Numbered from the stretch's first letter, positions 1 to 17,007 are shown. The stretch is DNA of 17,014 nt from an uncultured archaeon (GCA_964468895.1 CAYXWT010000005.1:1-17014); one strand, 5' to 3'. Numbers and translations are program-made. Notes: generated by a model from the letters alone, not told the origin.

Positions 1-503
1 TTGAGGATTACGTATTACCGCGGCGGCTGGCACGTATATTGCCCTCCTCTTATTCGCGTAGCGTTCTAGACTATACAAAAGCCTGTTTTTGCAGGCACTT
101 GGAATCGCATTATCACGGTTTCCCGCATTGTAAATGTTTCGTAACTGCTGCACCCCGTAGGGCTAGGGACCTTATCTCAGTTCCCTTCTCCGGGCGCTCT
201 CTTTCAAGACCCGTACAGATCTTCGGCTTGGTAGGCAGTTACCCTACCAACAACCTAATCTGACGCAGTCCCATCTTTTTGCATCCTACAAACATGAATG
301 TAAGACCTTTCATATAATAATCATTCCAGATTTATTATACTATTAAGCATTATACTTAGTTTCCCAAGTTTAACTTATCAAAAAGGTAGGTTGACCACGC
401 GTTACTGAGCCGTATGCCAAAACCTCTCATAGTTGAGGCTTTTAGACTTGCATGTCTTAGTCCGATTCCAATAGCAGTATCCACCAGCAGGATCAGCTGG
501 AAT
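1..503 (-). rRNA. rrs: 16S (SSU) rRNA, 5' ~500 nt, archaeal type; gene continues beyond window start
   Basis: The reverse complement of 490-503 reads ATTCCAGCTGATCC..., matching the archaeal SSU 5' end (ATTCCGGTTGATCCTGCC type). The rc of 12-33 reads GTGCCAGCCGCCGCGGTAATAC (universal 515 region) and the rc of 145-160 reads CTACGGGGTGCAGCAG. G+C is clearly higher than in flanking DNA. The exact 5' end is approximate (+/- a few nt). Confidence 0.93.
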
Positions 504-851
504 TGGTATTAAAATGCACACATATATAGTATATGTCATTTATAATATCTTCTAACATCAGACTCAAAATAACTTGAACCCTCATAAAAACAAGAAAAAT
601 CGTTTGTTTTACTAATTCAAAAAAAGTTGAACTAGTATAAACTAATAGGGAACAAAACATTTATAAAGAGATCATCGAAGAGTCTAATATACATATAATA
701 AGCTAGAATTCTTCAAAAATATTTTATAAATTACATTCCAAATATATTATGATTAGAAAAAAATATAAATATATCGTTAATATAAATTTAAGAAATAGAA
801 ATAGAATTTTTTTAAAAATAGATTAAAATTAAATAAAAAAGAAAAAAAGAT

Positions 852-983
852 TTAAGAAGCAGCTTTCTTTCTTAAATACTTTCTTTGTCTCTTTTTCTCT
901 CTCATCTTCTTCTTTTTCCATTTCCAACGCTGTCTAGCCTTGGTTTTTTTGAATCTACTTGAATCTTTTTTTCTAGTACCCAT
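852..983 (-). CDS. rpl41e: ribosomal protein L41e-like, 43 aa, extremely basic (below ORF-track size cut-off)
   Basis: The minus-strand ATG at 983-981 and TAA at 854-852 give MGTRKKDSSRFKKTKARQRWKWKKKKMREKKRQRKYLRKKAAS. The RWKWKKKKMR-KKRQRK core matches the K/R-W-K/R-KKR-M-R...KRKRRK signature of eukaryotic/archaeal L41e. The gene sits between a tRNA and the 16S gene on the same strand. Confidence 0.55.
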   Translation of the reverse strand: MGTRKKDSSRFKKTKARQRWKWKKKKMREKKRQRKYLRKKAAS

Positions 984-1014
984 TTTAAATTTCACCTAAC
1001 AAATATTATTGCTA

Positions 1015-1088
1015 TGCTCCGAACGGGATTCGAACCCGTGTTATCGGCTTGAAAGGCCAAAGTGATTACCGGGCTACACTACCGGAGC
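1015..1088 (-). tRNA. tRNA-Glu (anticodon UUC)
   Basis: The rc reads GCTCCGGTAGTGTAGCCCGGTAATCACTTTGGCCTTTCAAGCCGATAACACGGGTTCGAATCCCGTTCGGAGCA. It folds by hand into a cloverleaf with a 7-bp acceptor stem (one G-U), a 5-bp anticodon stem TTGGC/GCCGA, the loop CT-TTC-AA and a T-arm ACGGG-TTCGAAT-CCCGT. The discriminator is A and no CCA is encoded. Confidence 0.9.
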
Positions 1089-1255
1089 ATGTAAATAACC
1101 TATTACTTTCTTCCAAAAATAATTTAACATCTGATTTCAGTTTATTAATTATTTAAAAAATAATTATAAAATATAAATAGATTATAAATAATAAAGGTAA
1201 GTAAACATTTATAAATATATTTTTTCAGAATATTAATAATATATTTGAGAAAAAA

Positions 1256-2120
1256 ATGAGTATACAAAGATTTGTTGAAAACTTTAAAAATAACGTTAAT
1301 AAAAGTATATAAAATTATATTTCTAGAAATATAAACAATATTAATTTAGAAAAACATTTAATTTTTAATAAAAAAGAAATTTCATATAAAAATACAGTTC
1401 AAAAAAACATAATTAATCTTATTTAGGTTTTAGATTGTACAATTAATATAGGTTCATTAATATCTTTTTTACCTTTAAAAATAATATTTAAGAATGAATT
1501 AAATTTAGATAATTATAAAAAATTAGAAATATTTAAATTATATACTAAAGTATTAAATTCAATTCATTTAGGTCAAACAGCAGATATATTTTGGCATAAC
1601 ATACATAATTATAATATTAATTATGAACGATATTTAATTATGTATTCTTGTAAAACATAAGTTCTTACAAGACTTTGTACAAAATTAGGTTCTATTTTAG
1701 GTACTTATAACAATATACAACAAAGCAGATCATATAAATTTGCTTAAAAAATAGGTGTTACTTTTCAAATATAAGATGATATATTATATCTTAAATCTAG
1801 TAATGAATTTAATAAAATTTGTGGCTGTCAAGATATAGTTAAAGGTAAAAAAACAATCAGAATAATACATACTTTAAATAATTGCAATTTAGAAAAAAAA
1901 TAAATTAATTGAAATATTAAATAAAAAAGAAAATAAAAATCAAAAAAATAAAAATGCTGTAGAAATTATTAATAAGTATAATAGTATTGAATTTGCAGAA
2001 AACAAAGTGAAATAAATAATATTAGAAAGTATAAAAGATATTAATAAATATCTAAAAGAATCTAAATGTAAAAAATACTTACTATAATTTACAGATTATG
2101 TAATTAATAGAAAAATATAA
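1256..2120 (+). pseudogene. trans-polyprenyl (GGPP/FPP-type) diphosphate synthase, disrupted by 7 in-frame stops and one +1 frameshift
   Basis: The conceptual translation from ATG 1256 carries family motifs in the expected order: HLGQTADI (GQ..D), YLIMYSCKT*VL (Y..M...KT.xL), KIGVTFQI*DDIL (G.AFQIxDD second Asp-rich motif) and VKGKKTIRIIHTL (eGKkT.p.ihal). After a shift near 1901 it continues KLIEILNKK...AVEIINKYNSIEFAENK...FTDYVINRKI*. In-frame stops are TAA 1310, TAG 1424, TAA 1658, TAA 1745, TAA 1772, TAA 2013 and TAA 2085. The first Asp-rich motif is degraded to VLDCTIN and the region after it is shortened. Confidence 0.75.
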
Positions 2121-2152
2121 AATTGTTTTGTTTATTATATATAATATAGGTA

Positions 2153-2536
2153 ATGAATATGGATTCAATAGAAAAAATACTTTTTTTACCACATTGTTTA
2201 AGAAAAGCACAAACTTGTAAAGCAACTATAGATAAAAATGGGTATAATTGTAAATTTTGTAATATAGATTGTAAAGTTGGAATTATAAAAAAGTATGCTG
2301 AAAAAAGAGGTTTTTCTGTTTTTATAGCACCTGGTGGAACACTTGTAAAAAATATAATTTCAAAATATAATCCAAAAACTGTTATTGGCATTTGTTGTAA
2401 AAAAGAAGTTAAATTAGCTTTAGATTATCTTAAGAATTATAGTGGAACAATAGATTATATAAAACTTTGCAAAGATGGATGTATTAACACAGATGTAAAT
2501 TTAAATGAAGTTTATAGTAAATTAGATAAATACTAA
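2153..2536 (+). CDS. DUF116-family Cys-rich protein (function unknown)
   Basis: 127-aa ORF with AGGT 2 nt upstream of the ATG. The pattern LFLPHCLR...C......Y.C..C...C.....YAE..GF.V.I.PGGT.V...I....P..VIGI.C..E...........I.L..DGC.NT.V is as I recall for DUF116. Confidence 0.65.
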   Translation: MNMDSIEKILFLPHCLRKAQTCKATIDKNGYNCKFCNIDCKVGIIKKYAEKRGFSVFIAPGGTLVKNIISKYNPKTVIGICCKKEVKLALDYLKNYSGTIDYIKLCKDGCINTDVNLNEVYSKLDKY

Positions 2537-2659
2537 AAAAATAATTATTTATAAGGTTTGTTATTCTTAATTATATATAAATTCCTAGTTTTTAAATTTA
2601 AACTGAATTTAATTAAATTGAATATAAATTAAATATTATTAATTATAGAGGTAATAATT

Positions 2660-2809
2660 ATGGATGAAATTGCAAAAAAAAGAAGATTAGTAAATGTATG
2701 GGTATGCATGAAATGTAATGCAACTATGAGATCTCCTAAAAAACCAGAATTTTGTAGAACTTGTGGATCTGTTAGAATCAGAGCAAAAAAGAAAGGTAAA
2801 AAAGTATAG
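2660..2809 (+). CDS. rpl40e: ribosomal protein L40e (49 aa; below ORF-track cut-off)
   Basis: ATG 2660 is preceded by GAGGT at 2648-2652 and the stop is TAG 2807-2809. The translation is MDEIAKKRRLVNVWVCMKCNATMRSPKKPEFCRTCGSVRIRAKKKGKKV. It has the C-x2-C...C-x2-C zinc ribbon and basic tail typical of archaeal L40e. Confidence 0.8.
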   Translation: MDEIAKKRRLVNVWVCMKCNATMRSPKKPEFCRTCGSVRIRAKKKGKKV

Positions 2810-2852
2810 TTAATTAAAATAATTAATTTAAATTACAATTAACTTCTATTTC

Positions 2853-2865
2853 TTTTTTTATTTTT
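2853..2865 (+). terminator. oligo-T tract (T7 A T5) downstream of L40e; candidate archaeal intrinsic terminator
   Basis: The sequence tttttttattttt lies 44 nt after the L40e stop in a convergent gap. Archaeal RNAP terminates at oligo-T runs. T-runs are common in this AT-rich DNA, so support is weak. Confidence 0.3.
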
Positions 2866-2870
2866 AATTT

Positions 2871-3911
2871 TTAAAACCATTTAGTAATATTTTTCTGCTT
2901 TTGAACATTATCTTTTTCTTTAATAAAATTATCTAAATAGTTTTCTAATCTTACTTTTTCAAAATCATATTTATTAATTAATAATTCTTCTAATTTAATT
3001 CTATTAAAATTAGATTTATTAAATTCTGGATTTTTAGAAATATTTGGATTTAAAAATATATCTTCTACAACTTTATAGTCAAAATCTATAACTTTATTTT
3101 TACTTTTTAAATAAGTAATAATACTTTCAAAATCATCATTATTTTGAACAAGTTTAAGAGCAGTTTTAGGCCCAACACCTATTATTTTTTTATTAAAATC
3201 AGTTCCTATTAATATGCTTAACCAAATTAACTTTTGTCTAGTAATATTAAGATCTTTATAAATAGTATCAGCATAAATAATACAAGGCAAATTATCTACA
3301 AATCTATTTTTAGATATTACTTTTCTTTTTCCAGAAATACTTACATTTTTAAGTAAATGTGGAGAACCAAATAAAAAACAGTCATAATCTTGAGAAGAAG
3401 CATAGTCTAGCAAACCATCTTTAACCATAACAGATATTTGTGATTCTGCCTCACCTGGGGCTGTAAAACAAGGTACCCCTAAATAATTTAACAGCTCTTT
3501 AGATTGATCAATAATATCAGCATTTATGGTAGCTGATTGCTTACCATATCTATAAATGTCAAAAATATTTTCTTTTTCTATTGCAATATTATATTTTACT
3601 CTAGCATCAGCTCTTCTTTGTCTTCTATCTTGTTTAGTTTGATCTTTTAATTTATTACTGGTACCATCAAATACAAAAAAAGGTTGAATACCATATTTAA
3701 GTATATTTGTAACTCTATAAAATAAACCATTTATATGACTAGTAACATCTCCAGATTTATTTTTTAAAGGTAAACCATCTGAACCTCTTATAGTAGTTAC
3801 AAATTGATATAGCATATTATAAGCATCAAAACCTATTTTTTTGTTTTTAAAATTTTTTAAATCTATATCTTGTCTATATTCTTTAATTAAAGAACCAATT
3901 GCTACACCCAT
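2871..3911 (-). CDS. fen: flap endonuclease 1 (FEN1/XPG family)
   Basis: 346 aa. The N-terminus reads MGV.IG.LI......I.L..F..KKIG.DAYN.LYQF, followed by FVFDG, GEAE.Q and GTDFN...GVGPKTALKLV (H3TH). A C-terminal PIP-box-like QKNITKWF is present. Confidence 0.93.
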   Translation of the reverse strand: MGVAIGSLIKEYRQDIDLKNFKNKKIGFDAYNMLYQFVTTIRGSDGLPLKNKSGDVTSHINGLFYRVTNILKYGIQPFFVFDGTSNKLKDQTKQDRRQRRADARVKYNIAIEKENIFDIYRYGKQSATINADIIDQSKELLNYLGVPCFTAPGEAESQISVMVKDGLLDYASSQDYDCFLFGSPHLLKNVSISGKRKVISKNRFVDNLPCIIYADTIYKDLNITRQKLIWLSILIGTDFNKKIIGVGPKTALKLVQNNDDFESIITYLKSKNKVIDFDYKVVEDIFLNPNISKNPEFNKSNFNRIKLEELLINKYDFEKVRLENYLDNFIKEKDNVQKQKNITKWF

Positions 3912-4087: not shown

Positions 4088-4978
4088 ATGCCTGTTAAAA
4101 GAGATATCATCTTAATTATTGAAGGTGGCGCTATGAGTGGTATTTTTTCCACTGGAGTAGTAAGTTCATTTGAACAAAGAAAACTATATCCACAAATACA
4201 CAGCATATATTGTGTATCTGCTGGAGCACAAACAAGTGCTTATTTCTTATCTAAAAAAATACCTAAAGCTGTAGAAATATATACTAAAGATTTATTATCT
4301 AAAAGACAAAAATTTTTAAATCTTAATATATTTAAAATAATTTCTAAAGTTTGGAATTTAATTATTTATAAAGAAAATATGCACTTAATGGATTTAGAAG
4401 TTTTAAAACAAATTCAAAAAACTAAAACTAAAATTAATTTTAAAAATATTAAAGACTCAAAAATTAATTTTTTCGTAAAAGTTTTTGATTTTAAAAATTT
4501 GTGTGTAAAATATGTTGATGGTAAAAAAAACACATCTGAAATAATTAATGTTTCATCTAATATGCCACCATATATGTATTTAAAAACAAGATATACAAAC
4601 TATTATGATGGATCAATAGTTCCAAGTGATGATTTTCTAGATATAGTTAAACAGAATAAAAATAAAAAAATAATTTGGATACTTAATGAAAGAAGAACAA
4701 TATTTAGAAAAATGCACGATTTACCTTTTAGAATAATAGATTTATTGTTAAAAACAAGATACCTTGGTTTAGATTATATGACTTATCACATAATACATTT
4801 TTTTGATGTTCCAACTATAGAAAGATTAAAATTATATAAAAATGTATATTTAGTATATCCAGATAATAATGTAAGAAATTTTACTAGAAATAAAAAGAAA
4901 TTATTAAAATTATATTATCACGGTGTAAAAAAAGGAGATCAAGTTTTAAAAAAATTAAATATTAAATTTAAATTATAA
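4088..4978 (+). CDS. patatin-like phospholipase/acyl hydrolase family protein
   Basis: 296 aa. IIEGGAMSGIFSTGVV matches the patatin GGG.RG oxyanion loop. YCVSAGAQ matches G-x-S-x-G with the first Gly replaced by Cys. YYDGSIV matches the catalytic DG(G/A) motif. Confidence 0.6.
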   Translation: MPVKRDIILIIEGGAMSGIFSTGVVSSFEQRKLYPQIHSIYCVSAGAQTSAYFLSKKIPKAVEIYTKDLLSKRQKFLNLNIFKIISKVWNLIIYKENMHLMDLEVLKQIQKTKTKINFKNIKDSKINFFVKVFDFKNLCVKYVDGKKNTSEIINVSSNMPPYMYLKTRYTNYYDGSIVPSDDFLDIVKQNKNKKIIWILNERRTIFRKMHDLPFRIIDLLLKTRYLGLDYMTYHIIHFFDVPTIERLKLYKNVYLVYPDNNVRNFTRNKKKLLKLYYHGVKKGDQVLKKLNIKFKL

Positions 4979-4996: not shown

Positions 4997-6379
4997 ATGG
5001 GTACAATACTGTGGATTATATTAATTATAGCAATTTTAGTATTATGTGCAAAAATTGCAAAAACATTTTTTAAAAAAGATACAACACTAGGGTGTTTAAT
5101 ACTATTAAAAACAAACTATTTTTCTAAAGTTATAGAAAAACTTGGAAAACACACAAAGTTTCTAGATTTTATTTCAAAAGCAGGAATAGTTATTGGTTTT
5201 GGTGCTTTTGGATGGGATTATGTTATAAAAAATAAAAAAATTTCTAAAAACAATAGATTTCTTTTATTTATAATAATTACAATTGCCTTATCATTTATAA
5301 CATATCTACTTGCAGGAAATATGTTTTTACATAATCCAATAATACCACAGTTTATTGGATATTTCATAATATTTTTAACTGGTCTTATGGGTCTAAGTGG
5401 TTTTACTTTAGGGTCTTTAATTTATTCTGCATATGATATTATTGCAAAAATGATTATAGGACAAGTTGCTTGTCCAGGAGTTGGATTAGTAATTCCTGGT
5501 GTTAAAATGCCAAAAGTAGATTTCCAAGTACCATTATATGGATGGATTATTTTAATAATTTCAGCTATGATTCATGAATTCTTCCATGGCGCTTTACTTA
5601 GAAGATTTAAATTAAAAATTAAATCTGTTGGAGTAATACTTGCAGCAATATTACCACTAGGTGCTTTTGTTGAACCTGATGAAAAAGAACTTAAAAAAGC
5701 AGATCATAATAAAGTTGCACAAATGTATTCTGCTGGTCCTACTAGTAATGTTTTATTATCAATAATATTTATAATATTATTACTTATAACTAATGCTGCC
5801 TCTAACTCATATATTACAGATATTAATAATCAAAAAGATATAGGTATTAAAGTTTCAAATATTGAAGAAGAAACTAATATTTGTGGTAGTATATTTGAAA
5901 ATCCTGCTTATGGGGTGTTACAAGTAAATGATTTAATATTAAATGTAAATGGAAAAGAAATAAAAACAAATTCAGATTATAAAAATTCTTTAAAACAAGA
6001 TTCAAAAAATATATTTGAAGTAATTAACTTAGATACAAATATTTCTAGAATAGAATATATAAAAACAAATGAACTTGGAAATATAGGATTTTCTGCTGAA
6101 ATTCTTAAAAATAAAAATTTTAAAATTCCTTTTAAATATAAGTTTTTACTAGTACTAGCATCAGTTCTTAGTTGGACTGCTTTATTAAATTTTTTAATTG
6201 GAGCTGTAAACTTTTTACCAACTGTACCTTTTGATGGTGGATTTTTATCACAAGCAATATTTAGTAGATATCTAAATAAAAAACAAAATTTAAAGAAAAG
6301 AATGAAAAAAGTAGGTAAATTCTTTGCAATAGTAATAATTATATTATTAATATTAAATATAATTCCTTACTTTTTGTAA
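4997..6379 (+). CDS. site-2 protease family (peptidase M50) membrane metalloprotease with PDZ domain
   Basis: 460 aa with multiple hydrophobic helices. It has HEFFH (HExxH) in a TM segment and a central PDZ-like segment (VLQVNDLILNVNGKEIKT). The C-terminal NFLPTVPFDGG matches the NxxPxxxxDG motif. Confidence 0.85.
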   Translation: MGTILWIILIIAILVLCAKIAKTFFKKDTTLGCLILLKTNYFSKVIEKLGKHTKFLDFISKAGIVIGFGAFGWDYVIKNKKISKNNRFLLFIIITIALSFITYLLAGNMFLHNPIIPQFIGYFIIFLTGLMGLSGFTLGSLIYSAYDIIAKMIIGQVACPGVGLVIPGVKMPKVDFQVPLYGWIILIISAMIHEFFHGALLRRFKLKIKSVGVILAAILPLGAFVEPDEKELKKADHNKVAQMYSAGPTSNVLLSIIFIILLLITNAASNSYITDINNQKDIGIKVSNIEEETNICGSIFENPAYGVLQVNDLILNVNGKEIKTNSDYKNSLKQDSKNIFEVINLDTNISRIEYIKTNELGNIGFSAEILKNKNFKIPFKYKFLLVLASVLSWTALLNFLIGAVNFLPTVPFDGGFLSQAIFSRYLNKKQNLKKRMKKVGKFFAIVIIILLILNIIPYFL

Positions 6380-7237: not shown

Positions 7238-7283
7238 TGAAAACAACCTATTTGAGAAATAATGTAATAAATTAAATACAAAG

Positions 7284-7356
7284 TGCAACTACCGGGACTC
7301 GAACCCGGGTCCTGAGCTTGGAAGGCTCGCATACTAAACCACTATACTATAGTTGC
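7284..7356 (-). tRNA. tRNA-Gly (anticodon UCC)
   Basis: The rc reads GCAACTATAGTATAGTGGTTTAGTATGCGAGCCTTCCAAGCTCAGGACCCGGGTTCGAGTCCCGGTAGTTGCA. The acceptor stem GCAACTA/TAGTTGC is perfect, the anticodon loop is CT-TCC-AA and the T-arm is CCGGG-TTCGAGT-CCCGG. No CCA is encoded. Confidence 0.9.
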
Positions 7357-7425: not shown

Positions 7426-7848
7426 CTATTTAACTAAAGTTATTAATTTAGTTAATTTTTCTAAATCTTCTTTTTTATAATTTGTAGTAGGCCAAAATGA
7501 GAAATCATCTGTAGAAAACCTTGGAACTATGTGAAAATGTAAGTGATACACACTTTGCTCTGCATCTTTTCCAGATGCATTTAAGATATTAACACCACTA
7601 CAGCCTAATACATCCTTATAATGATTAGAAATAAGCTTTATTGCTTTTATTACTTCTTCAAGATATTTATCTTCACAATCAAATATATTTTCAAAATGCT
7701 TTTTTGGAATTACAAGAGTATGACCTTTAAATTGAGGATTAACATCTAAAAAAGCAAGCACAAAGTTATTTTCATAAATCTTATGACAAGGTATTTCTTC
7801 TTTTATAATTTTACAAAATATACAATCTTCTCTATTTTCAAAACTCAT
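7426..7848 (-). CDS. HIT (histidine triad) family nucleotide hydrolase/transferase
   Basis: Motifs are CIFCKII....P, GHTLVIPK.H and the triad HLHFHIVPR. The track start at 7857 is GTG. ATG at 7848 (MSFENRED...) is the more likely start. The stop codon is TAG. Confidence 0.9.
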   Translation of the reverse strand: MSFENREDCIFCKIIKEEIPCHKIYENNFVLAFLDVNPQFKGHTLVIPKKHFENIFDCEDKYLEEVIKAIKLISNHYKDVLGCSGVNILNASGKDAEQSVYHLHFHIVPRFSTDDFSFWPTTNYKKEDLEKLTKLITLVK

Positions 7849-7896
7849 AACAATCACAATTTAATATAGTTATTTTTATTAAATAATTTTATTATC

Positions 7897-9524: not shown

Positions 9525-10433
9525 TTATTTGGTATAAAACTTATAAGCAATAATTTTATATAAAAGCTTTGCCAAAGTAAAACTTTCAGAAAAATAATTG
9601 TTTTTATCTCCTTTTGGTGCAAATTCAACCAAATCTATACCAATAACGTCTTTATTTTTAAAGATTTCTTTTAATAAATCATTAACTTCATACCAATTTA
9701 AACCACCAGGTTCAGGTGTACCAGTACATTTAATTATAGAAGTATCAAAAACATCTACATCAAAAGAAATAAATACTTTAGAAGGTAACTTTTTTAAAAA
9801 TTTTTTAAGATTATAATTTTTAGATTTAATAATGTCTTCAGATTTTATAATAGATATATTATTAGCAGAACTAGTATTAGATTTTAGATATTCAAATTCT
9901 TCTAAAGACTGAGATCTAACTCCTAAAATCAGGCATTTATGATTTAAAGATACTTTTCTTGTAACACAAGCATGAGGCCAACTATCTTTATCTTCAAAAT
10001 ATTCTCTTAAATCACTATGTGCATCAAAAATAATAACACCAAATTCATCAGTAGAATTCTCTAAAGAATTAACTGTACTTTGAGTTATAGAATGATCTCC
10101 ACCTATAAAAATTGGTAACTTTTCATTTAAATTTAAATTTTGAATTTTATTTGTAATATCTACAATTGCTTTATTATGATTTTTATATTTAGAATTAATT
10201 TCTTTTTCAAGAAATATACCTTGTTCGTAAGGTTCAACTTCTAAATCTAAATCAAAATATTCTAATTCTTTAGAAGCATTAACTATTTCTTTATAACCAT
10301 TAATAGTACCAGAACTACTACTCATATTTGATTCATAATTAATAGGTACAATTACTACTTTTGAATTTTCTTTTAAAGAATATTCAAGTGGTAAATTCAT
10401 AAATCTACTTTTTTCTTTTTTTTTAGAATTCAT
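9525..10433 (-). CDS. speB: agmatinase / ureohydrolase (arginase family)
   Basis: Motifs are GGDHSIT, IIFDAHSDLR, SFDVDVFD....GTPEPGGL and IDLVEFAP, the Mn-binding signatures of arginase/agmatinase. The agmatinase assignment is favoured by the neighbouring decarboxylase (inference). Confidence 0.85.
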   Translation of the reverse strand: MNSKKKEKSRFMNLPLEYSLKENSKVVIVPINYESNMSSSSGTINGYKEIVNASKELEYFDLDLEVEPYEQGIFLEKEINSKYKNHNKAIVDITNKIQNLNLNEKLPIFIGGDHSITQSTVNSLENSTDEFGVIIFDAHSDLREYFEDKDSWPHACVTRKVSLNHKCLILGVRSQSLEEFEYLKSNTSSANNISIIKSEDIIKSKNYNLKKFLKKLPSKVFISFDVDVFDTSIIKCTGTPEPGGLNWYEVNDLLKEIFKNKDVIGIDLVEFAPKGDKNNYFSESFTLAKLLYKIIAYKFYTK

Positions 10434-10441
10434 AATTAATC

Positions 10442-11812
10442 TTATTTAAATTTATTAACAATAGAATTAAAAGAACTAATATTTTTACTAAAATTAAGAT
10501 ATTTAACATCCTCTTTTTTAATAGTAATTTTAGAAGATTTAATTAAGTTTATTTTATCTAAATTTTTAAGAATATAGTCTTCATTTACTTTTTTATTATT
10601 TATTAAAGCATATTTAAAATATTTAACAAAATCACTATGTAAATAGAAACCAAATTCGAAAACATTAATTCCTGCAGGGACTGTAATAATTTTATTAGAA
10701 GTTGTAACTACAGAAACAAAAGCTTCATTTTTTAGAGAATTATTTTTATTTTTAAAATGTTTTATAACTCTAATTAATTTTTTATCATGGCTAGATAAAT
10801 AGTTTTCATATTTATATTTAAAATGAGATGAAAGACCAAACTCTGCATTTTCATGCATTTCTGTGGTTCTAATTTGAACTTCAACATTATAATTTTCAAT
10901 AACAACATTTAAATGTAGAGATCTATAATTATTACTTTTAGGATTTCTAATGAAATTCTTTTCTCTTATAACTTCAAACTTACTTTTTATTAATTCATAA
11001 CATCTATAACAATCTTTTCTATTTTCACAAATAAATCTAACTGCATATATATCTTTAATTAAATTTAAACTTTTTTCTTTTTTTTTAATATAAATATTCT
11101 TAAAAATACTACTTATAGATTTATATCTATAATTAACAAATAATATTTTAGGTTTATATTTATATGGAACATTATCTAAAATAATATCTTTAAAATATTC
11201 TAATTTTTTTTTAGGATATATTTTATTTACTTGTTTTATAAGAGTTTTATATTTCTGTGGGAATTTAGTTTTTATAAATAAATCTTGGATTTTATTTCTA
11301 AAATCATACATACCTAATTGCACACACAAAGGAATTATAGACAATTCTACAGTTTTGAGAAATGTGTTTTTAAACTTGACATCTTTTATTTTATTAAAAT
11401 ATTTAAAAATAACCATAACTTCAGAAAATAAAATTATTACAGACTCAATTCTTGAAAAAGAATTTAGGATATAATTTTTATACTTTTTAGCATTAAAATT
11501 AGAAGAATATAAAATTTCTGGAAAATTAAAATAATAATAATCCTTAGAAATATCTAATATTTGATTATCAATATTTAGTTTGTTTATATTTTCAACAGAT
11601 AAATACTTATAAATATCATAAATCATTGTAGAAAAGATTACATTATTATTATATGATAGCGTATTTTCTGAAATCTCTAATATATACTTAACAAGTGAAA
11701 TTTTAGAAAATATTTTTTTAGAATTATACACTTTTTTACAAATATTATAATATTTTTTAAAATCAGACAAGTATTTTTTTTTTAATAAAAGATATTTTGG
11801 ATAACTTTTCAT
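10442..11812 (-). CDS. RelA/SpoT homologue (RSH): degenerate HD-like N-domain + (p)ppGpp-synthetase-type nucleotidyltransferase domain + C-terminal TGS domain
   Basis: The synthetase core YRYKSISSIFKNI...IKDIYAVRFIC...CY....NFIRNPKSNNYRSLHLNV...VEVQIRTTEMHENAEFGLSSHFKYK matches GRxK...D..A.R...CY...DYI..PK.NGYxSLH...EvQIRT..MH..AE.G.AaHW.YK. The upstream segment VIILFSEVMVIFKYF...ELSIIPLCVQLGMYDFRNKIQDL parallels IKLADRLHNMR...EIYAPLAHRLG...K.ELEDL. At the expected HD position the sequence is TMIYDIYKY. The TGS-like C-terminus reads VTTSNKIITVPAGINVFEFGFYLHSDFVKYFKYALINNKKV. Confidence 0.8.
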   Translation of the reverse strand: MKSYPKYLLLKKKYLSDFKKYYNICKKVYNSKKIFSKISLVKYILEISENTLSYNNNVIFSTMIYDIYKYLSVENINKLNIDNQILDISKDYYYFNFPEILYSSNFNAKKYKNYILNSFSRIESVIILFSEVMVIFKYFNKIKDVKFKNTFLKTVELSIIPLCVQLGMYDFRNKIQDLFIKTKFPQKYKTLIKQVNKIYPKKKLEYFKDIILDNVPYKYKPKILFVNYRYKSISSIFKNIYIKKKEKSLNLIKDIYAVRFICENRKDCYRCYELIKSKFEVIREKNFIRNPKSNNYRSLHLNVVIENYNVEVQIRTTEMHENAEFGLSSHFKYKYENYLSSHDKKLIRVIKHFKNKNNSLKNEAFVSVVTTSNKIITVPAGINVFEFGFYLHSDFVKYFKYALINNKKVNEDYILKNLDKINLIKSSKITIKKEDVKYLNFSKNISSFNSIVNKFK

Positions 11813-11844
11813 AGATAATCTTTATTTTTACTAAAAGCTAGAAA

Positions 11845-12900
11845 TTATTTTATAATTTCTATTTTTGGTCTTTCTAAATTAAAAAGATCTGTATAATAAA
11901 TATAAGAACCAGCATTTAAAAAAACAATTTGGTCTTTTATTTTAGGAACTTTATTAAAATAAACTCTATATCTAAATATATCTTCAGAAGCAGGAGTTGC
12001 ACCTTTAATAACATAAGGATTTCCATTAACTTCTAAACTTTCTCCTTCAACAAGTAATTTTACATTTGTTACTATTGTATCCATTGAACAATTAAACACA
12101 GAAGCATCAATAAAAAGATTATTATCAACAATATTAACTATATTTGCTATTAATTTACCACTTGGAGCAGCTATTGCTCTACCAGGTTCACAAATTAATT
12201 TTATATTTTTAGAATTTACAAATTCTTTAAGTTCTTTTATTTTTTCATAAACAGAATCTATTGTACTTGGATTAGTATTTTTATATTCTACTGGTATACC
12301 TCCTCCAATATCTAGAGAAGATATAATTTCCCAGCTTTTGGAGTTTATAGATTGTTCAAGTTCTCTAACTAAAGACCATTCTGCAAGATTTTGTGTTTTT
12401 CTATGAAAATGTATTCCTAATTGATTTATATTTAAATTATCTTTTAATTTAAGTAATAATTCATTTACTTTTGAAGAATAAAATCCAAATACAAAATATC
12501 TGCCAGTTTGAACAGTATATTCTTTAAGTCTCATTCTTAAAAAAAGATCTATTTTATGATTATTGCTTTTGCAATAATCAAGAATAAAATCTAAATCTTT
12601 AATGTTATCTACAATAAATTTATTAATGTTTTTTTCAAAAATTAAATTTAATTCTTCATTTTCTGGAGAATGAAGCATATACAAAATATTAGAATAATCA
12701 AAATCATTTATATTTTCAAAATGTTTTAATTCATTTAAATGATGTATTAAAAACGAACTATTAGTACTTTGTCCAAGTATATCAACTAAATAAGGATTAG
12801 ACTTAACACTATAGCAAACAACATCACACAAAGAATTAATTTTATTATATTGTTCTATAGCTTTTGATTTACTAATTTGAAATTTAGCTCTTGAAATCAT
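11845..12900 (-). CDS. PLP-dependent Orn/Lys/Arg/DAP decarboxylase family (fold type III), short form; possibly arginine decarboxylase
   Basis: 351 aa. CYSVKSNPYLVDIL is the PLP-Lys motif Y-x-x-K-x-N. Other motifs are GIHFHRKTQ, LDIGGGIPV (Gly-rich phosphate loop), CEPGRAIAAPSG (EPGR) and FLNAGSY. Substrate is inferred only from the operon context with agmatinase. Confidence 0.78.
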   Translation of the reverse strand: MISRAKFQISKSKAIEQYNKINSLCDVVCYSVKSNPYLVDILGQSTNSSFLIHHLNELKHFENINDFDYSNILYMLHSPENEELNLIFEKNINKFIVDNIKDLDFILDYCKSNNHKIDLFLRMRLKEYTVQTGRYFVFGFYSSKVNELLLKLKDNLNINQLGIHFHRKTQNLAEWSLVRELEQSINSKSWEIISSLDIGGGIPVEYKNTNPSTIDSVYEKIKELKEFVNSKNIKLICEPGRAIAAPSGKLIANIVNIVDNNLFIDASVFNCSMDTIVTNVKLLVEGESLEVNGNPYVIKGATPASEDIFRYRVYFNKVPKIKDQIVFLNAGSYIYYTDLFNLERPKIEIIK

Positions 12901-13194: not shown

Positions 13195-16038
13195 ATGTAT
13201 AAGAATATAATTATTAAAGGTGCTAGAGAACACAATTTAAAAAACATTAATATAGAAATACCTAAATATAAGTTTATAGTTATTACTGGTGTATCTGGAA
13301 GTGGTAAATCTACTTTAGCTTTTGACACTATATATGCTGAAGGACAAAGAAGATACGTAGAAAGCCTTTCTTCTTATGCAAGACAATTTCTTGGAATGAT
13401 GAAAAAACCAGATGTTGATAGTATAGAAGGATTAAGTCCAGCTATTTCTATTGAACAAAAAACAACTTCTAAAAATCCAAGATCTACTGTTGGAACTGTT
13501 ACTGAAGTTTATGATTATCTTCGTTTATTATTTGCAAGAATTGGAGTACCTTATTGTCCAAAACATAATATAAAAATAGAATCTATGTCTTCACAAAAAA
13601 TTAGTGAAAATATAATTTCAGAATTTAATAATCAAGATATAATTATACTTGCACCTATTATTCAACAAAAAAAAGGAACTTATGAAAAGCTTATTGAAGA
13701 TATTAATAAAGAAGGTTATAGTAGAGTTAGAATCAATAACAAAATTATTAAAAGTGAAGAAAAAATAGAACTTGAAAGATATAAAAAACATGATATTGAA
13801 ATTGTAATAGATAGAATAAAAATTAATAAAGATAATAAAAGTAGATTAGTTGAAGATATAGAAAATGCAAATCAAAAATCAAAAACTGGACTTATAAAAA
13901 TATTATTTAAAAATAAAACTAATAAAGAAGAAGAAAAAATATATTCTACAAAAATGTCCTGTCCAGTTTGTGGATTAGCTTATGAAGAATTACAACCAAG
14001 AATGTTTTCTTTTAATAGTCCTTTTGGTGCTTGTGAAAATTGTAGTGGACTTGGTTTCAAAATGGAATTTGATATAAATTTAATAATTCCTAATAAAGAT
14101 ATTGGAATACTTGATGGTGCTATTAAAGTTTATAGAAATGTAATGGATGGTTGGAGAACTCAACATCTTCTAAATGTAGCCAAAGCAAATGGTTTTGATG
14201 GTTTTACAACTATAAATAAATTAACAAAAGAACAATATAACACTTTAATGTATGGTTCTGATCAAAAAATAAAATTTACTTTAAAAAAAAGAGATGGTTC
14301 TGGCTCTTTTATGCACACAGGAAATTGGGAAGGAGTCATTCCTCAACTGGAAAGATTATATAAACAAACAGAATCAGATTATAGAAGAAAAGAACTTACT
14401 AAATTTATGAAAATTCTTCCTTGTAATCAATGTAATGGTAAAAGATTAAAAGAAAAGATTTTATCTGTAAAAATTAAAAATAAAAATATTGTAGATATTA
14501 CAGATTTATCTATTAAAGAAACTATTTCTTTTTTTAAAAATTTAAAATTAAATAAAAAAGAACAAGAAATAGCAAAACATATTTTAAAAGAAATAAATTC
14601 AAGACTTGAATTTTTAGATAAAGTTGGACTTAGTTATTTAACTCTTTCAAGAAGTAGTGGAACTCTTTCTGGTGGAGAAGCACAAAGAATAAGATTAGCT
14701 ACTAATCTTGGAACTAATCTTACTGGAGTATTATATGTTCTTGATGAACCTTCTATTGGACTTCATCAAAGAGATAATCAAAAATTAATAGATACTTTAA
14801 AAAGATTAAGAGATTTAGGTAATACTTTAATAGTAGTAGAACATGATGAAGATACTATTAGACAAGCAGATCATGTTATTGATATTGGACCTGGTGCTGG
14901 TATTCATGGTGGAGAAATAGTTGCAGAAGGAACTCCTAAGCAAATAGAAGAAAATAAAGAATCACTAACTGGAAAATATCTTTCTGGTGTTCATGAAATT
15001 GAACTTCCTAAAAAAAGAAGAACTTTTAATAATTATATTGAACTAAATGGTGCTTGTGAAAATAATTTGAAAAAATTAAATGTAAAAATACCAATTGGTG
15101 TTTTAAATATTATAACTGGTGTAAGTGGAAGTGGAAAATCCACTTTAATTAATGACACATTATACAAAGAAGCTATGAACAAAATCTATAAATCTAAATT
15201 TACTAGTGGAAAACATAAAAATTTAGATTTAAAAAATATAGATAAAGTAATAGCTATCGATCAATCTCCAATAGGCAGAACTCCAAGAAGTAATCCTGCT
15301 ACTTACACTAAACTATTTGATGAAATTAGAATAATTTTTGCAAATACTTTAGAAGCTAAAACTAGAGGTTATAAACCAGGAAGATTTTCTTTTAATGTAA
15401 AAGAAGGGAGATGTCATGCTTGTAATGGTGATGGACAAATAAAAATAGAAATGAATTTTCTTCCAGATGTTTATGTAGATTGTGAAGAATGTAAAGGAAC
15501 TAGGTATAATAGTGAAACACTTGAAGTTAAATATAAAAATAAAAATATAGCTCAAGTATTAGATATGAGTGTAGAAGAAGCATATTCTTTTTTTAAAAAT
15601 ATACCTAAAATTAAAAGAAAATTACAAACATTAATGGATGTTGGTTTAAGTTATATTAAATTAGGTCAAAGCTCAGTAACGCTTTCAGGTGGAGAAGCAC
15701 AAAGAATAAAAATCACTAAAGAACTGTCTAAAATAGGTAGTGGAAATACATTATATATACTTGATGAACCAACTACTGGTCTTCATTTTCATGATGTAAA
15801 AAAACTAATAGAAGTACTAAATAAATTAGTAGATAAAGGTAATACAGTAATTGTAATTGAACATAATCTTGATGTTATAAAATGTGCTGATTATATAATA
15901 GATCTTGGTCCAGAAGGCGGAGATAATGGTGGAAAAATAATAGCAATAGGTACTCCTGAAGAAATCATAAAAAATAAAAACTCTTTTACAGGTATTTATC
16001 TTAAAAAATATATAAATTCAGAAAAAGAAAAGAAATAA
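13195..16038 (+). CDS. uvrA: excinuclease ABC subunit A (UvrA), full length
   Basis: 947 aa. It has two ABC modules, with Walker A GVSGSGKST twice, LSGGEAQRI twice, and LYVLDEPSIGLH / LYILDEPTTGLH. Zn-finger Cys pairs are present (CPVCG...CENCSG, CNQCNG, CHACNG...CEECKG). The N-terminus reads IKGAREHNLKNI. Confidence 0.97.
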   Translation: MYKNIIIKGAREHNLKNINIEIPKYKFIVITGVSGSGKSTLAFDTIYAEGQRRYVESLSSYARQFLGMMKKPDVDSIEGLSPAISIEQKTTSKNPRSTVGTVTEVYDYLRLLFARIGVPYCPKHNIKIESMSSQKISENIISEFNNQDIIILAPIIQQKKGTYEKLIEDINKEGYSRVRINNKIIKSEEKIELERYKKHDIEIVIDRIKINKDNKSRLVEDIENANQKSKTGLIKILFKNKTNKEEEKIYSTKMSCPVCGLAYEELQPRMFSFNSPFGACENCSGLGFKMEFDINLIIPNKDIGILDGAIKVYRNVMDGWRTQHLLNVAKANGFDGFTTINKLTKEQYNTLMYGSDQKIKFTLKKRDGSGSFMHTGNWEGVIPQLERLYKQTESDYRRKELTKFMKILPCNQCNGKRLKEKILSVKIKNKNIVDITDLSIKETISFFKNLKLNKKEQEIAKHILKEINSRLEFLDKVGLSYLTLSRSSGTLSGGEAQRIRLATNLGTNLTGVLYVLDEPSIGLHQRDNQKLIDTLKRLRDLGNTLIVVEHDEDTIRQADHVIDIGPGAGIHGGEIVAEGTPKQIEENKESLTGKYLSGVHEIELPKKRRTFNNYIELNGACENNLKKLNVKIPIGVLNIITGVSGSGKSTLINDTLYKEAMNKIYKSKFTSGKHKNLDLKNIDKVIAIDQSPIGRTPRSNPATYTKLFDEIRIIFANTLEAKTRGYKPGRFSFNVKEGRCHACNGDGQIKIEMNFLPDVYVDCEECKGTRYNSETLEVKYKNKNIAQVLDMSVEEAYSFFKNIPKIKRKLQTLMDVGLSYIKLGQSSVTLSGGEAQRIKITKELSKIGSGNTLYILDEPTTGLHFHDVKKLIEVLNKLVDKGNTVIVIEHNLDVIKCADYIIDLGPEGGDNGGKIIAIGTPEEIIKNKNSFTGIYLKKYINSEKEKK

Positions 16039-16062: not shown

Positions 16063-17007
16063 ATGGAATATATAAAAATTAATGATATTGTTTTTGGAGA
16101 ACACATAATAAAAGAACCTGTACTTTGTGAACTAATAAAAACAAAAGCAATGAAAAGATTAAAAAATATAAGTAGTAATGGAATACCTCCAAAATATTAT
16201 TATAAAAACCAATTTAGTAGATTAGAACATTCTTTAGGTTGTTTAATTTTAAGCGAACTATTTAATGCATCTTTAGAAGAAAAAATTGCTTGTCTTCTTC
16301 ACGATGTTAATCATACTGCTTTTTCTCATATTTATGATGGTATTTTAAACAATATAGAAGAAGACTATCAAGATAAAACATTTTTTGATTTTTTAAATAA
16401 TACAACAGAAATAAAAGATATATTTCAAAAATATAAAATAGACATAAACAATTTCAAAAACTTTGAAAAATTCAGATTATTAGATAGACCAAAACCACAA
16501 ACTTGTATTGATAGATTAGATTATTGTTTAAGAGAATTTTACAATATTAAAAGAAATAAAGATTATATAAAAAACATTTTATTTAATATAAAAATAACAG
16601 ACAATAAAGAAATAATATTTAAAAATAAAAGTGCTGCAAAAGATTTTGCTGAAGCTTATTTATATTTATTCCTAAATAGATGGAATGAACCTAGAAATAT
16701 AGAAAAGCAAATATTTTTTGCAGATATACTCACAAATGCAATTTCTAAAAATATAATAAGTCATGATGATTTTAAAAAAGATGATATATATGTATTAGAC
16801 AAAATAGAAAATTGTAAAGACAAGAACATAGAAAACCAACTTAAAGAATTAAAAGAAAACACATTTGTTATTAAAAACCCAAAACAGAAAAAACTAAGAC
16901 ATGTAAATCCAAAATATCTTGATGAAAATAATAATGTTTTAGATCTAATGTCTACAGATTATAATTATAAAAATAGAATTGATACTATTTTGAAAGAATA
17001 TGAATAA
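16063..17007 (+). CDS. HD-domain metal-dependent phosphohydrolase (COG1078/dNTPase-like N-terminal region)
   Basis: 314 aa. RLEHSLGC...LLHDVNHTAFSH is the H...HD...H signature of the HD superfamily. It starts 24 nt after uvrA on the same strand. Confidence 0.75.
   Translation: MEYIKINDIVFGEHIIKEPVLCELIKTKAMKRLKNISSNGIPPKYYYKNQFSRLEHSLGCLILSELFNASLEEKIACLLHDVNHTAFSHIYDGILNNIEEDYQDKTFFDFLNNTTEIKDIFQKYKIDINNFKNFEKFRLLDRPKPQTCIDRLDYCLREFYNIKRNKDYIKNILFNIKITDNKEIIFKNKSAAKDFAEAYLYLFLNRWNEPRNIEKQIFFADILTNAISKNIISHDDFKKDDIYVLDKIENCKDKNIENQLKELKENTFVIKNPKQKKLRHVNPKYLDENNNVLDLMSTDYNYKNRIDTILKEYE

What the first reader, a model, noticed from the sequence alone, without database searches (positions are those of the whole stretch)
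1256..2120. Isoprenoid chain-elongation gene caught in decay: GGPP-type prenyl diphosphate synthase with 7 in-frame stops and a frameshift
The only long ORF-free stretch in the window is not non-coding. Read in frame from ATG 1256, it translates into a recognisable trans-prenyltransferase carrying GQ..D, KT.xL, G.TFQI.DDIL, GKKT and the C-terminal ..DYVINR. It is interrupted by six TAA codons, one TAG codon and a +1 shift.

The stops fall at positions normally occupied by different residues. These include the x of FQIxDD (often Q) and the small residue of KT[AG], so they look like independent AT-biased point mutations rather than one recoded codon. The first Asp-rich motif is degraded (VLDCTIN instead of DDxxD) and the segment after it is shortened.

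DPANN-type archaea are known to often lack lipid and isoprenoid biosynthesis and to depend on hosts. This would be a snapshot of that loss in progress, and retained pseudogenes are uncommon in streamlined genomes.
Basis: partly seen in the sequence, partly recalled or inferred. Interest (0 to 1): 0.62.

Follow-up and report, generated by a model that had tools for sequence, protein, structure and literature searches.

The report
Dead GGPP-synthase gene in tiny archaeon
Window 1256-2120 is a true, recently inactivated pseudogene of a geranylgeranyl-diphosphate-synthase-like enzyme in a very AT-rich, probably DPANN archaeon, and a sister species (16S 97.4% identical) still has the intact gene at the same spot, so this is a clear but unsurprising case of ongoing gene loss.

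Summary
With stops masked and one frameshift repaired, 1256-2120 (+) matches Pfam polyprenyl_synt (E=1.2e-29). It also matches an intact 355-aa orthologue by tblastn (E=1.25e-54). That orthologue sits in the same gene order (tRNA-Glu, synthase, DUF116, FEN1, patatin) in a congeneric species, L009 (16S 97.4% identical).

Aligned to the orthologue, the lesions are:
- Seven premature stops, replacing K, Y, G, E, Q, E and E codons.
- A net 201-bp in-frame deletion that removes the LLDRGGKRWRP stretch and the whole first Asp-rich motif.
- A 2-bp deletion next to an A-run, which causes the frameshift.
- Two 3-bp indels.
- DDILD changed to DDILY in the second Asp-rich motif.

A second assembly from another sample (L001) carries every lesion. 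Its only 3 differences over 3820 bp all lie inside the pseudogene, and all would change an amino acid.

Constraint is relaxed: omega is 0.45 against 0.17-0.24 in neighbouring genes, amino-acid replacements run about 2:1 on this branch, and GC is 16% against 19.5% in the orthologue. TAA or TAG ends all 12 intact neighbouring genes, so recoding is excluded.

That motif is deleted outright.

Whether the cell has lost GGPP synthesis altogether cannot be told from the about 23 kb available. This is an ordinary kind of event, but cleanly documented.

The parts
1256..2120 (+). Pseudogene of a short-chain trans-isoprenyl (GGPP-like) diphosphate synthase. It is 865 bp against 1068 bp for the intact orthologue.
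   Evidence: PF00348 E=1.2e-29. tblastn with the L009 orthologue gives E=1.25e-54 in three pieces: aa 1-56, 127-282 and 281-355. DNA alignment.
1256..1258 (+). Original ATG start codon, retained.
   Evidence: Aligns with the ATG of the L009 orthologue.
1310..1312 (+). Premature TAA. The orthologue has AAA (Lys).
1424..1426 (+). Premature TAG. The orthologue has TAT (Tyr).
1427..1435 (+). Junction of a net 201-bp (67-codon) in-frame deletion, equivalent to L009 2952-3159. It removes LLDRGGKRWRP and the first Asp-rich motif (LIHDDIEDNALIRRG).
   Evidence: blastn breaks at window 1425/1433 against L009 2951/3160. Alignments.
1496..1501 (+). 3-bp insertion relative to the orthologue. The position is approximate.
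1658..1660 (+). Premature TAA at the invariant Gly of the KTG motif. The orthologue has GGT.
1712..1713 (+). Site of a 3-bp deletion relative to the orthologue. The position is approximate.
1745..1747 (+). Premature TAA. The orthologue has GAA (Glu, in FAEKIG).
1772..1774 (+). Premature TAA at the Gln of FQIQDD. The orthologue has CAG.
1775..1789 (+). Remnant of the second Asp-rich motif. DDILD has become DDILY, so the last Asp is lost.
1891..1900 (+). 2-bp deletion next to or within an 8-A run. This is the frameshift, after which reading continues in frame 2.
2013..2015 (+). Premature TAA in frame 2. The orthologue has GAA (Glu).
2085..2087 (+). Premature TAA in frame 2. The orthologue has GAA (Glu, in LLEFAD).
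2118..2120 (+). Original TAA terminator, retained at the orthologous position.
1688..1866 (+). Three polymorphic sites (1688 G/A, 1860 G/T, 1866 T/C). They are the only differences from a second assembly over 3820 bp, and all would change an amino acid.
   Evidence: The probability of 3 of 3 falling here by length alone is 0.012.
2153..2536 (+). Intact DUF116 gene, co-directional and 32 bp downstream of the pseudogene. It also follows the intact synthase in the sister species.
   Evidence: PF01976 E=1e-32. 72% aa identity to L009 with omega 0.17. Synteny.
1014..1089 (-). tRNA-Glu(UUC), the upstream boundary of the syntenic locus.
2871..3911 (-). FEN1 (flap endonuclease), the downstream synteny anchor.

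Best explanation
Window 1256-2120 is a non-functional remnant (unitary pseudogene) of a GGPP-synthase-like trans-isoprenyl diphosphate synthase.

How it arose:
- In the common ancestor of this organism and its congener (L009) the gene was intact. It lay between tRNA-Glu and a DUF116 gene.
- After the two species split, selection on the gene was lost in this lineage.
- AT-biased mutation then produced seven independent stop codons, of which six are TAA.
- Small deletions produced a frameshift.
- A 201-bp deletion removed the first Asp-rich, Mg2+/diphosphate-binding motif.
- No catalytically competent product can now be made. The longest open piece is 77 codons and lacks both complete Asp-rich motifs.

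Timing. The count of stops fits about 0.10 neutral substitutions per site (range 0.05-0.20). That is roughly a quarter to a half of the branch since the split. This figure is an inference from a simple model.

Likely cause (inferred, not shown). The organism no longer needs its own C20 prenyl-chain elongation, as expected for a host-dependent DPANN archaeon that takes lipids or prenyl precursors from a partner.
For: Shown:
- Homology.
- An intact 355-aa orthologue with both DDxxD motifs sits at the same position and orientation in L009, L010 and L011. The flanks are the same: a 43-aa ORF upstream of the synthase, then DUF116, a 49-aa ORF, FEN1 and patatin. The 16S rRNA is 97.4% identical.
- Each stop maps to a different sense codon in the orthologue.
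- The deletion removes 20 of the 71 columns that are invariant among 8 intact homologues, and 10 more are substituted.
- All lesions are shared by an independent assembly from JGI sample 3300039187. Its only 3 SNPs in 3820 bp lie in the pseudogene and are all non-synonymous.
- Pairwise omega is 0.445, against 0.17 for DUF116, 0.24 for FEN1 and 0.20 for patatin.
- In the amino-acid relative-rate test, 43 replacements are unique to this branch against 23 on the L009 branch (p=0.019). The direction is the same with 6 further outgroups.
- GC is 16.2% against 19.5% in the orthologue, while neighbouring genes are not AT-shifted.
- TAA or TAG ends all 12 intact neighbouring genes, and none has an in-frame stop.
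- A simulation of neutral decay of the orthologue gives 7 stops at about 0.10 substitutions per site.

Context from the literature:
- Incomplete lipid pathways are common in DPANN cluster 2 (PMC7414124).
- DPANN genomes have very few pseudogenes (PMC7289037).
Against: - The nucleotide-level three-taxon test with a distant outgroup (L019) shows an excess only at first codon positions (42 vs 25). Positions 2 and 3 are symmetric (20/20 and 31/31). The acceleration is therefore moderate, or the test is weak.
- dS in a genome with GC3 of 5-10% is poorly estimated, so omega and the age estimates are rough.
- Raw reads were not available.
- Only about 23 kb of this genome was seen (window, L001, L017). 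An intact paralogue elsewhere, and the state of the mevalonate/MEP, GGGP-synthase and DGGGP-synthase genes, are unknown.
- The DPANN assignment is indirect.
Confidence: 0.93

Rival explanations
1. Redundant-copy decay. The organism still makes GGPP from an intact paralogue or a horizontally acquired synthase elsewhere in its genome. This locus is then a superfluous duplicate that is decaying, and no metabolic capacity has been lost.
For: It cannot be excluded, because only about 23 kb of the genome was inspected. The more distant relatives L002 and L003 have no synthase at this locus, which shows that the location of the gene, if present, varies in the group.
Against: No second polyprenyl_synt match was found in the window, L001 or L017. 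The sister species keeps this very copy intact and identical across three samples, which suggests it is the working copy in the genus. That small DPANN genomes rarely carry paralogous short-chain synthases is my own knowledge and was not tested here.
Confidence: 0.2
2. The dead gene's DNA is kept because it still serves the downstream DUF116 gene, as promoter plus 5' leader of a former two-gene operon. That would explain why 81% of its length survives in a streamlined genome. This adds to the pseudogene reading and does not replace it.
For: The synthase and DUF116 are co-directional, 32 bp apart here and 58 bp apart in L009. DUF116 is intact and under purifying selection, with omega 0.17. The original start and stop codons are both still in place.
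Against: No transcription data are available. In 84% A+T DNA, promoter-like boxes cannot be told from background. Simple recency of inactivation explains the retention equally well.
Confidence: 0.25
3. The gene is functional. The stops are read through or recoded, and the frameshift is programmed.
For: Six of the seven stops are the same codon (TAA).
Against: TAA ends 11 of the 12 intact neighbouring genes and TAG ends the twelfth, with no in-frame stops in any of them. The stops replace five different amino acids: K, Y, G, Q and three E. The first Asp-rich motif is physically deleted and the second is mutated. Constraint is relaxed.
Confidence: 0.01
4. The lesions are assembly or sequencing artefacts, or the similarity is chance in AT-rich spacer DNA.
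For: None beyond low-complexity, AT-rich sequence and a homopolymer at the frameshift site.
Against: A second assembly from a different JGI sample has the same 7 stops, deletions and frameshift. The stops are substitutions, not homopolymer-length errors. E-values run from 1e-29 to 1e-54.
Confidence: 0.02

Closest known systems
Archaeal and eukaryote-like short-chain trans-isoprenyl diphosphate synthases (GGPPS/IdsA; Pfam PF00348; e.g. P. horikoshii GGPPS PDB 1wy0, yeast Bts1 2dh4)
   Same: There is clear sequence homology over profile positions 82-251. The GQ..D, KT, FQI.DD and GKK motifs and the C-terminal DY.INR are recognisable. The intact orthologue has both DDxxD motifs and the HSASLIHDDIEDN..RRG signature.
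   Different: The copy here has no open reading frame, lacks the first Asp-rich motif and the KRWRP stretch, and has DDILY in place of DDILD. It is a relic, not an enzyme. Even the intact orthologue falls below every NCBIfam equivalog cut-off (205 against 468 bits), so its product chain length is unknown.
Pseudogenes of reductive genome evolution in host-dependent microbes (e.g. Mycobacterium leprae, young insect endosymbionts)
   Same: Multiple independent stops, small deletions, AT drift and raised omega in a gene whose product can presumably be obtained from a partner. This comparison rests on my own knowledge.
   Different: It occurs in a DPANN-type archaeon, where genomes are reported to be dense with very few pseudogenes (PMC7289037). 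It is an isolated case in a 17-kb window that is otherwise fully coding.
Lipid and isoprenoid pathway gaps in DPANN archaea (N. equitans, Undinarchaeales and others)
   Same: It fits the reported pattern of incomplete lipid biosynthesis and lipid uptake from hosts (PMC7414124).
   Different: Those reports rest on gene absence in MAGs. Here the gene is still visible in decay and can be dated against a congener that keeps it.

Membership tests
Polyprenyl synthetase family (PF00348), by descent | Significant profile similarity above the curated threshold | tested here: met
   103.7 bits against a cut-off of 27, E=1.2e-29, on the repaired translation.
Functional trans-prenyl diphosphate synthase | First Asp-rich motif DDxx(xx)D | tested here: not met
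   Removed by the net 201-bp deletion after 1424. The orthologue has DDIED.
Functional trans-prenyl diphosphate synthase | Second Asp-rich motif DDxxD | tested here: not met
   It reads DDILY (1775-1789) and is directly preceded by an in-frame TAA.
Functional trans-prenyl diphosphate synthase | Uninterrupted reading frame of about 330-360 codons | tested here: not met
   7 premature stops and a 2-bp frameshift. The longest open piece is 77 codons.
GGPP (C20) synthase specifically | Equivalog-level match or demonstrated product chain length | tested here: inconclusive
   The best NCBIfam match is IdsA_Meth. It scores 117.6 bits for the pseudogene and 205 bits for the intact orthologue, against a cut-off of 468. 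The nearest solved structures are GGPPSs. The chain-length-determining region is deleted here.
Unitary pseudogene | Orthologous intact gene at the syntenic position in a close relative | tested here: met
   L009, L010 and L011 have a 355-aa intact gene between tRNA-Glu/16S and DUF116-FEN1-patatin. 16S identity is 97.4%.
Unitary pseudogene | Multiple disabling lesions that are real and not artefacts | tested here: met
   All lesions are shared with an independent assembly, L001. Raw reads were not available.
Unitary pseudogene | Relaxed selective constraint | tested here: met
   Omega 0.445 against 0.17-0.24. Replacements 43 against 23 (p=0.019). GC drop. 3 of 3 population SNPs fall inside the pseudogene. 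The nucleotide three-taxon test was weak.
Unitary pseudogene | No functional product (no protein, no activity) | not testable with these tools
   Needs proteomics or transcriptomics.
DPANN archaeon (host organism) | Phylogenetic placement by rRNA or marker proteins | tested here: inconclusive
   Archaeal 16S. About 20-25% GC. The 16S is followed by tRNA-Ala and then by protein genes, with no 23S found in L001. Homologues of the orthologue are labelled with DPANN phyla. No reference phylogeny could be run.

The most novel reading that the evidence does not exclude
Two congeneric DPANN species (16S 97.4% identical) differ in whether they can elongate prenyl chains. If so, loss of isoprenoid and lipid autonomy is a recent, species-level event in this genus and not an ancient trait of the clade. 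The dead gene would then mark a recent shift to complete dependence on host-derived lipids, or a change of host. A corollary is that the conserved DUF116 partner, retained intact, has a role independent of GGPP synthesis.
Probability: 0.3. Interest if true: 0.5.

Novelty: new member of a known kind. Interest (0 to 1): 0.3.

Why it matters
Claims that DPANN archaea cannot make their own lipids rest mostly on genes missing from incomplete MAGs. A gene seen in the act of decay, next to an intact orthologue in a sister species, is positive evidence of loss and is not an assembly gap. It gives a rough date for the loss. It also gives a natural pair of genomes for asking what else changes when prenyl-chain synthesis is given up, such as transporters, the patatin-like lipase or host range. 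Finally, it is one of the few documented pseudogenes in a group reported to have almost none (PMC7289037). The mechanism itself, relaxed selection plus AT-biased mutation and deletion, is textbook.

Tried and rejected
- The word-indexed protein search with the repaired translation found nothing at E<=1e-3. Its candidates were low-complexity K/N/I-rich proteins.
- FEN1-anchored scan of GTDB genomes. It found only two moderately related genomes, L002 (16S 90.5%) and L003 (84.6%). Both keep FEN1, tRNA-Glu and 16S but have unrelated genes in between. The 360-aa ORF at that place in L002 has the size and orientation of the synthase but shows no similarity to it.
- The DUF116 homologue P0003 (L012) has an unrelated upstream ORF. 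P0005 (L015) sits among tRNA-modification genes. The synthase-DUF116 pairing is therefore not general.
- The nucleotide three-taxon rate test with L019 was only weakly informative.
- Promoter and terminator scans were not run. The bacterial consensus does not apply to archaea, and 84% A+T makes TATA-like matches meaningless.

Full report
**What is in the window**

The window is archaeal and extremely AT-rich, about 20% G+C outside the rRNA. Its genes, in order:

| Coordinates | Strand | Feature |
|---|---|---|
| 1-503 | - | 5' part of a 16S rRNA gene |
| 1014-1089 | - | tRNA-Glu(UUC) |
| 1256-2120 | + | the stretch in question |
| 2153-2536 | + | DUF116 gene |
| 2871-3911 | - | FEN1 |
| 4088-4978 | + | patatin-like protein |
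| 4997-6379 | + | M50 protease |
| 7283-7356 | - | tRNA-Gly |
| 7426-7857 | - | HIT protein |
| 9525-10433 | - | arginase-family enzyme |
| 10442-11812 | - | RelA/SpoT-TGS protein |
| 11845-12900 | - | Orn/Arg decarboxylase |
| 13195-16038 | + | UvrA |
| 16063-17007 | + | HD-domain protein |

The 12 intact genes end in TAA (11 genes) or TAG (1 gene), and none contains an in-frame stop. The standard stop codons are therefore in use.

**Checking the observation**

Frame 1 from ATG 1256 carries TAA 1310, TAG 1424, TAA 1658, TAA 1745 and TAA 1772. After a shift near the A-run 1893-1900 the sense continues in frame 2, with TAA 2013 and TAA 2085, and ends at TAA 2118.

I masked the stops and repaired the shift. 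The resulting 288-residue translation gives these matches:

- Pfam polyprenyl_synt: 103.7 bits, E=1.2e-29, profile positions 82-251 of 251.
- NCBIfam IdsA_Meth: E=6.7e-34.
- P. horikoshii GGPPS, PDB 1wy0: E=1e-16.

The other two frames of the same DNA hold 26 and 45 stops. About 33 stops would be expected at compositional equilibrium.

**Finding the intact counterpart**

Several searches failed first:

- A word-indexed search with the damaged translation found nothing.
- FEN1-anchored scans reached only distant relatives.

A search with the adjacent DUF116 protein succeeded. It found a 72%-identical homologue, P0002. Its contigs L009, L010 and L011 come from three JGI samples and carry, in order: a 43-aa ORF, an intact 355-aa polyprenyl synthase, DUF116, a 49-aa ORF, FEN1 and patatin. 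This is the gene order of the window.

The full 16S of the window's population is on L001. It is 97.4% identical to that of L009, 90.5% to L002 and 84.6% to L003. L009 is therefore a congeneric but distinct species.

tblastn of the L009 protein against the window gives E=1.25e-54 in three pieces: aa 1-56, 127-282 and 281-355.

**Anatomy of the damage**

| Window position | Lesion | State in the L009 orthologue |
|---|---|---|
| 1310 | TAA | AAA (Lys) |
| 1424 | TAG | TAT (Tyr) |
| just after 1424 | net 201-bp in-frame deletion | L009 2952-3159 |
| near 1498 | 3-bp insertion | - |
| 1658 | TAA | GGT (the invariant Gly of KTG) |
| near 1712/1713 | 3-bp deletion | - |
| 1745 | TAA | GAA (Glu) |
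| 1772 | TAA | CAG (the Gln of FQIQDD) |
| 1775-1789 | DDILY | DDILD |
| next to the 8-A run, 1893-1900 | 2-bp deletion (frameshift) | - |
| 2013 | TAA | GAA (Glu) |
| 2085 | TAA | GAA (Glu) |

The 201-bp deletion removes LLDRGGKRWRP and the whole first Asp-rich motif (LIHDDIEDNALIRRG). The original ATG and the original terminator are both still in place.

That motif is deleted, not degraded.

Of the 71 columns invariant among eight intact homologues, 20 are deleted and 10 are substituted. The longest open piece is 77 codons.

**Are the lesions real?**

L001 is a 7.7-kb contig from a different JGI sample (3300039187). It is 99.92% identical to window 1-3820 and carries every stop, the deletions and the frameshift.

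Its only three differences are at 1688 G/A, 1860 G/T and 1866 T/C. All three lie inside the pseudogene, and all three would change an amino acid. By length alone the chance of that is 0.012. This is what neutral polymorphism in a dead gene, flanked by constrained DNA, looks like.

**Relaxed constraint**

- Pairwise Nei-Gojobori omega against L009 is 0.445 for the pseudogene. It is 0.17 for DUF116, 0.24 for FEN1 and 0.20 for patatin.
- With the 55%-identical homologue P0008 as outgroup, 43 amino-acid replacements are unique to the window branch against 23 on the L009 branch (p=0.019). Six further outgroups give the same direction.
- The pseudogene has 16.2% G+C against 19.5% in the orthologue. 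The neighbouring genes are not AT-shifted relative to theirs.
- A nucleotide-level three-taxon count with L019 was only weakly asymmetric: position 1, 42 vs 25; position 2, 20 vs 20; position 3, 31 vs 31. I report this as a limit on the strength of the signal.
- I simulated neutral decay of the orthologue under the pseudogene's base composition. Seven stops are reached at about 0.10 substitutions per site, with a 5-95% range of roughly 0.05-0.20.
- Set against a per-branch synonymous divergence of roughly 0.35-0.45 (half the dS), that suggests inactivity for about a quarter to a half of the time since the species split. The omega-based estimate is somewhat higher. Both are rough, because synonymous sites are nearly saturated with A/T.

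**Explanation**

This is a unitary pseudogene of a GGPP-synthase-like trans-isoprenyl diphosphate synthase. It was inactivated after the split from a congener that retains the gene.

- Shown: homology, orthology, the lesions, their reality in two assemblies, and relaxed constraint.
- Inferred: the loss reflects dependence on a partner for prenyl chains or lipids. This fits literature on DPANN lipid-pathway gaps (PMC7414124). Retention of a pseudogene is unusual for the group (PMC7289037).

Three things are not established:

- Taxonomy. The DPANN affiliation rests on the labels of homologues of the orthologue and on genome style.
- Product chain length. Even the intact orthologue is below every equivalog cut-off.
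- Whether another synthase, or any other lipid gene, exists elsewhere. Only about 23 kb of this genome (window, L001, L017) was seen, with no second PF00348 match.

**Rivals**

- Read-through or recoding is excluded by stop-codon usage in the neighbours, by the five different residues replaced, and by the physical loss of the catalytic motif.
- Artefact is excluded by the second assembly.
- Chance similarity is excluded by the E-values.
- Two readings remain open. One is that a paralogue elsewhere makes the loss metabolically silent (about 0.2). The other is that the relic persists because it carries the promoter and leader of the still-needed DUF116 gene (about 0.25, and compatible with the main reading).

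**Comparison with what is known, and verdict**

By descent this is a member of PF00348, but it fails every test of a working enzyme. As a phenomenon it is a standard pseudogene of reductive evolution.

What is slightly unusual is the host group and the availability of an intact congeneric orthologue. I rate it a new member of a known kind, with modest interest (0.3).

Noticed in passing
L013 7498-15838 (GCA_054040355.1 JBPKZC010000032.1) and L014: In an archaeal context (L7Ae, S28e, EF-2, S15 genes), a DUF116 gene lies tail-to-tail with a polyprenyl synthase. A bacterial-type MEP-pathway cluster follows: a GHMP-kinase+LytB (IspE-IspH-like) fusion, a thiolase-like gene, an IspD+YgbB (IspD-IspF) fusion and DXR. 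MEP genes in a Woesearchaeota clade are already described (Castelle et al. 2021, PMC8204110), so this is probably known. The IspE-IspH-like fusion and the DUF116 neighbour were not checked against that paper.
   Followed up: partly
window 2153-2536; L009 3908-4297; L013 7498-7920; L015 6001-6315; L012 564-950: The short (104-140 aa) DUF116 protein sits next to a polyprenyl synthase in two separate lineages: the window/L009 genus and L013. It does not in L015, where it lies among wyosine and TilS-like tRNA-modification genes, nor in L012. A functional link between DUF116 and isoprenoid metabolism is therefore possible but not general. Here DUF116 survives intact while the synthase decays.
   Followed up: partly
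window 1688, 1860, 1866 (against L001 5567, 5739, 5745): The only three differences between two assemblies of this population over 3820 bp all lie inside the pseudogene, and all would be non-synonymous. None lies in the 16S, tRNA, DUF116 or FEN1 genes.
   Followed up: yes
L002 15291-16158 (-): The patatin-like gene of the relative L002 is split into two overlapping ORFs in different frames (204 aa and 91 aa; tblastn HSPs for aa 3-203 and 202-286). This is either a frameshifted, possibly decaying lipase gene or a MAG sequencing error.
   Followed up: no
L001 2653-4382 (-), window 1-503: The 16S rRNA gene is followed by tRNA-Ala(UGC) and then by protein-coding ORFs, with no 23S rRNA. The rRNA genes appear to be unlinked. 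L002 carries three tRNA-Ala genes (CGC, AGC, UGC) after its 16S.
   Followed up: no
window 852-983 (-) and 2660-2809 (+): Two very small ORFs (43 aa, Lys/Arg-rich; 49 aa) are called as genes at the same relative positions in L001 and in the sister species L009, L010 and L011. Neither has a Pfam match. They may be real small proteins, and the 43-aa one looks like a ribosomal-protein-type basic peptide.
   Followed up: no
window 10442-11812 (-), 13195-16038 (+); L017 3179-4666: Bacterial-type genes occur in this tiny archaeal genome: a RelA/SpoT+TGS protein, UvrA and, just beyond the window end, UvrC. An agmatinase/arginase and Orn/Arg-decarboxylase pair (9525-12900) suggests that polyamine synthesis is retained.
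   Followed up: no
L002 8391-9473 (-); L003 2602-3174 (+): The interval between FEN1 and tRNA-Glu/16S is a variable slot in this family. L002 holds a 360-aa ORF with no Pfam match and no similarity to the synthase. L003 holds a 190-aa ORF with no match and an 84-aa zinc-ribbon-like ORF.
   Followed up: partly
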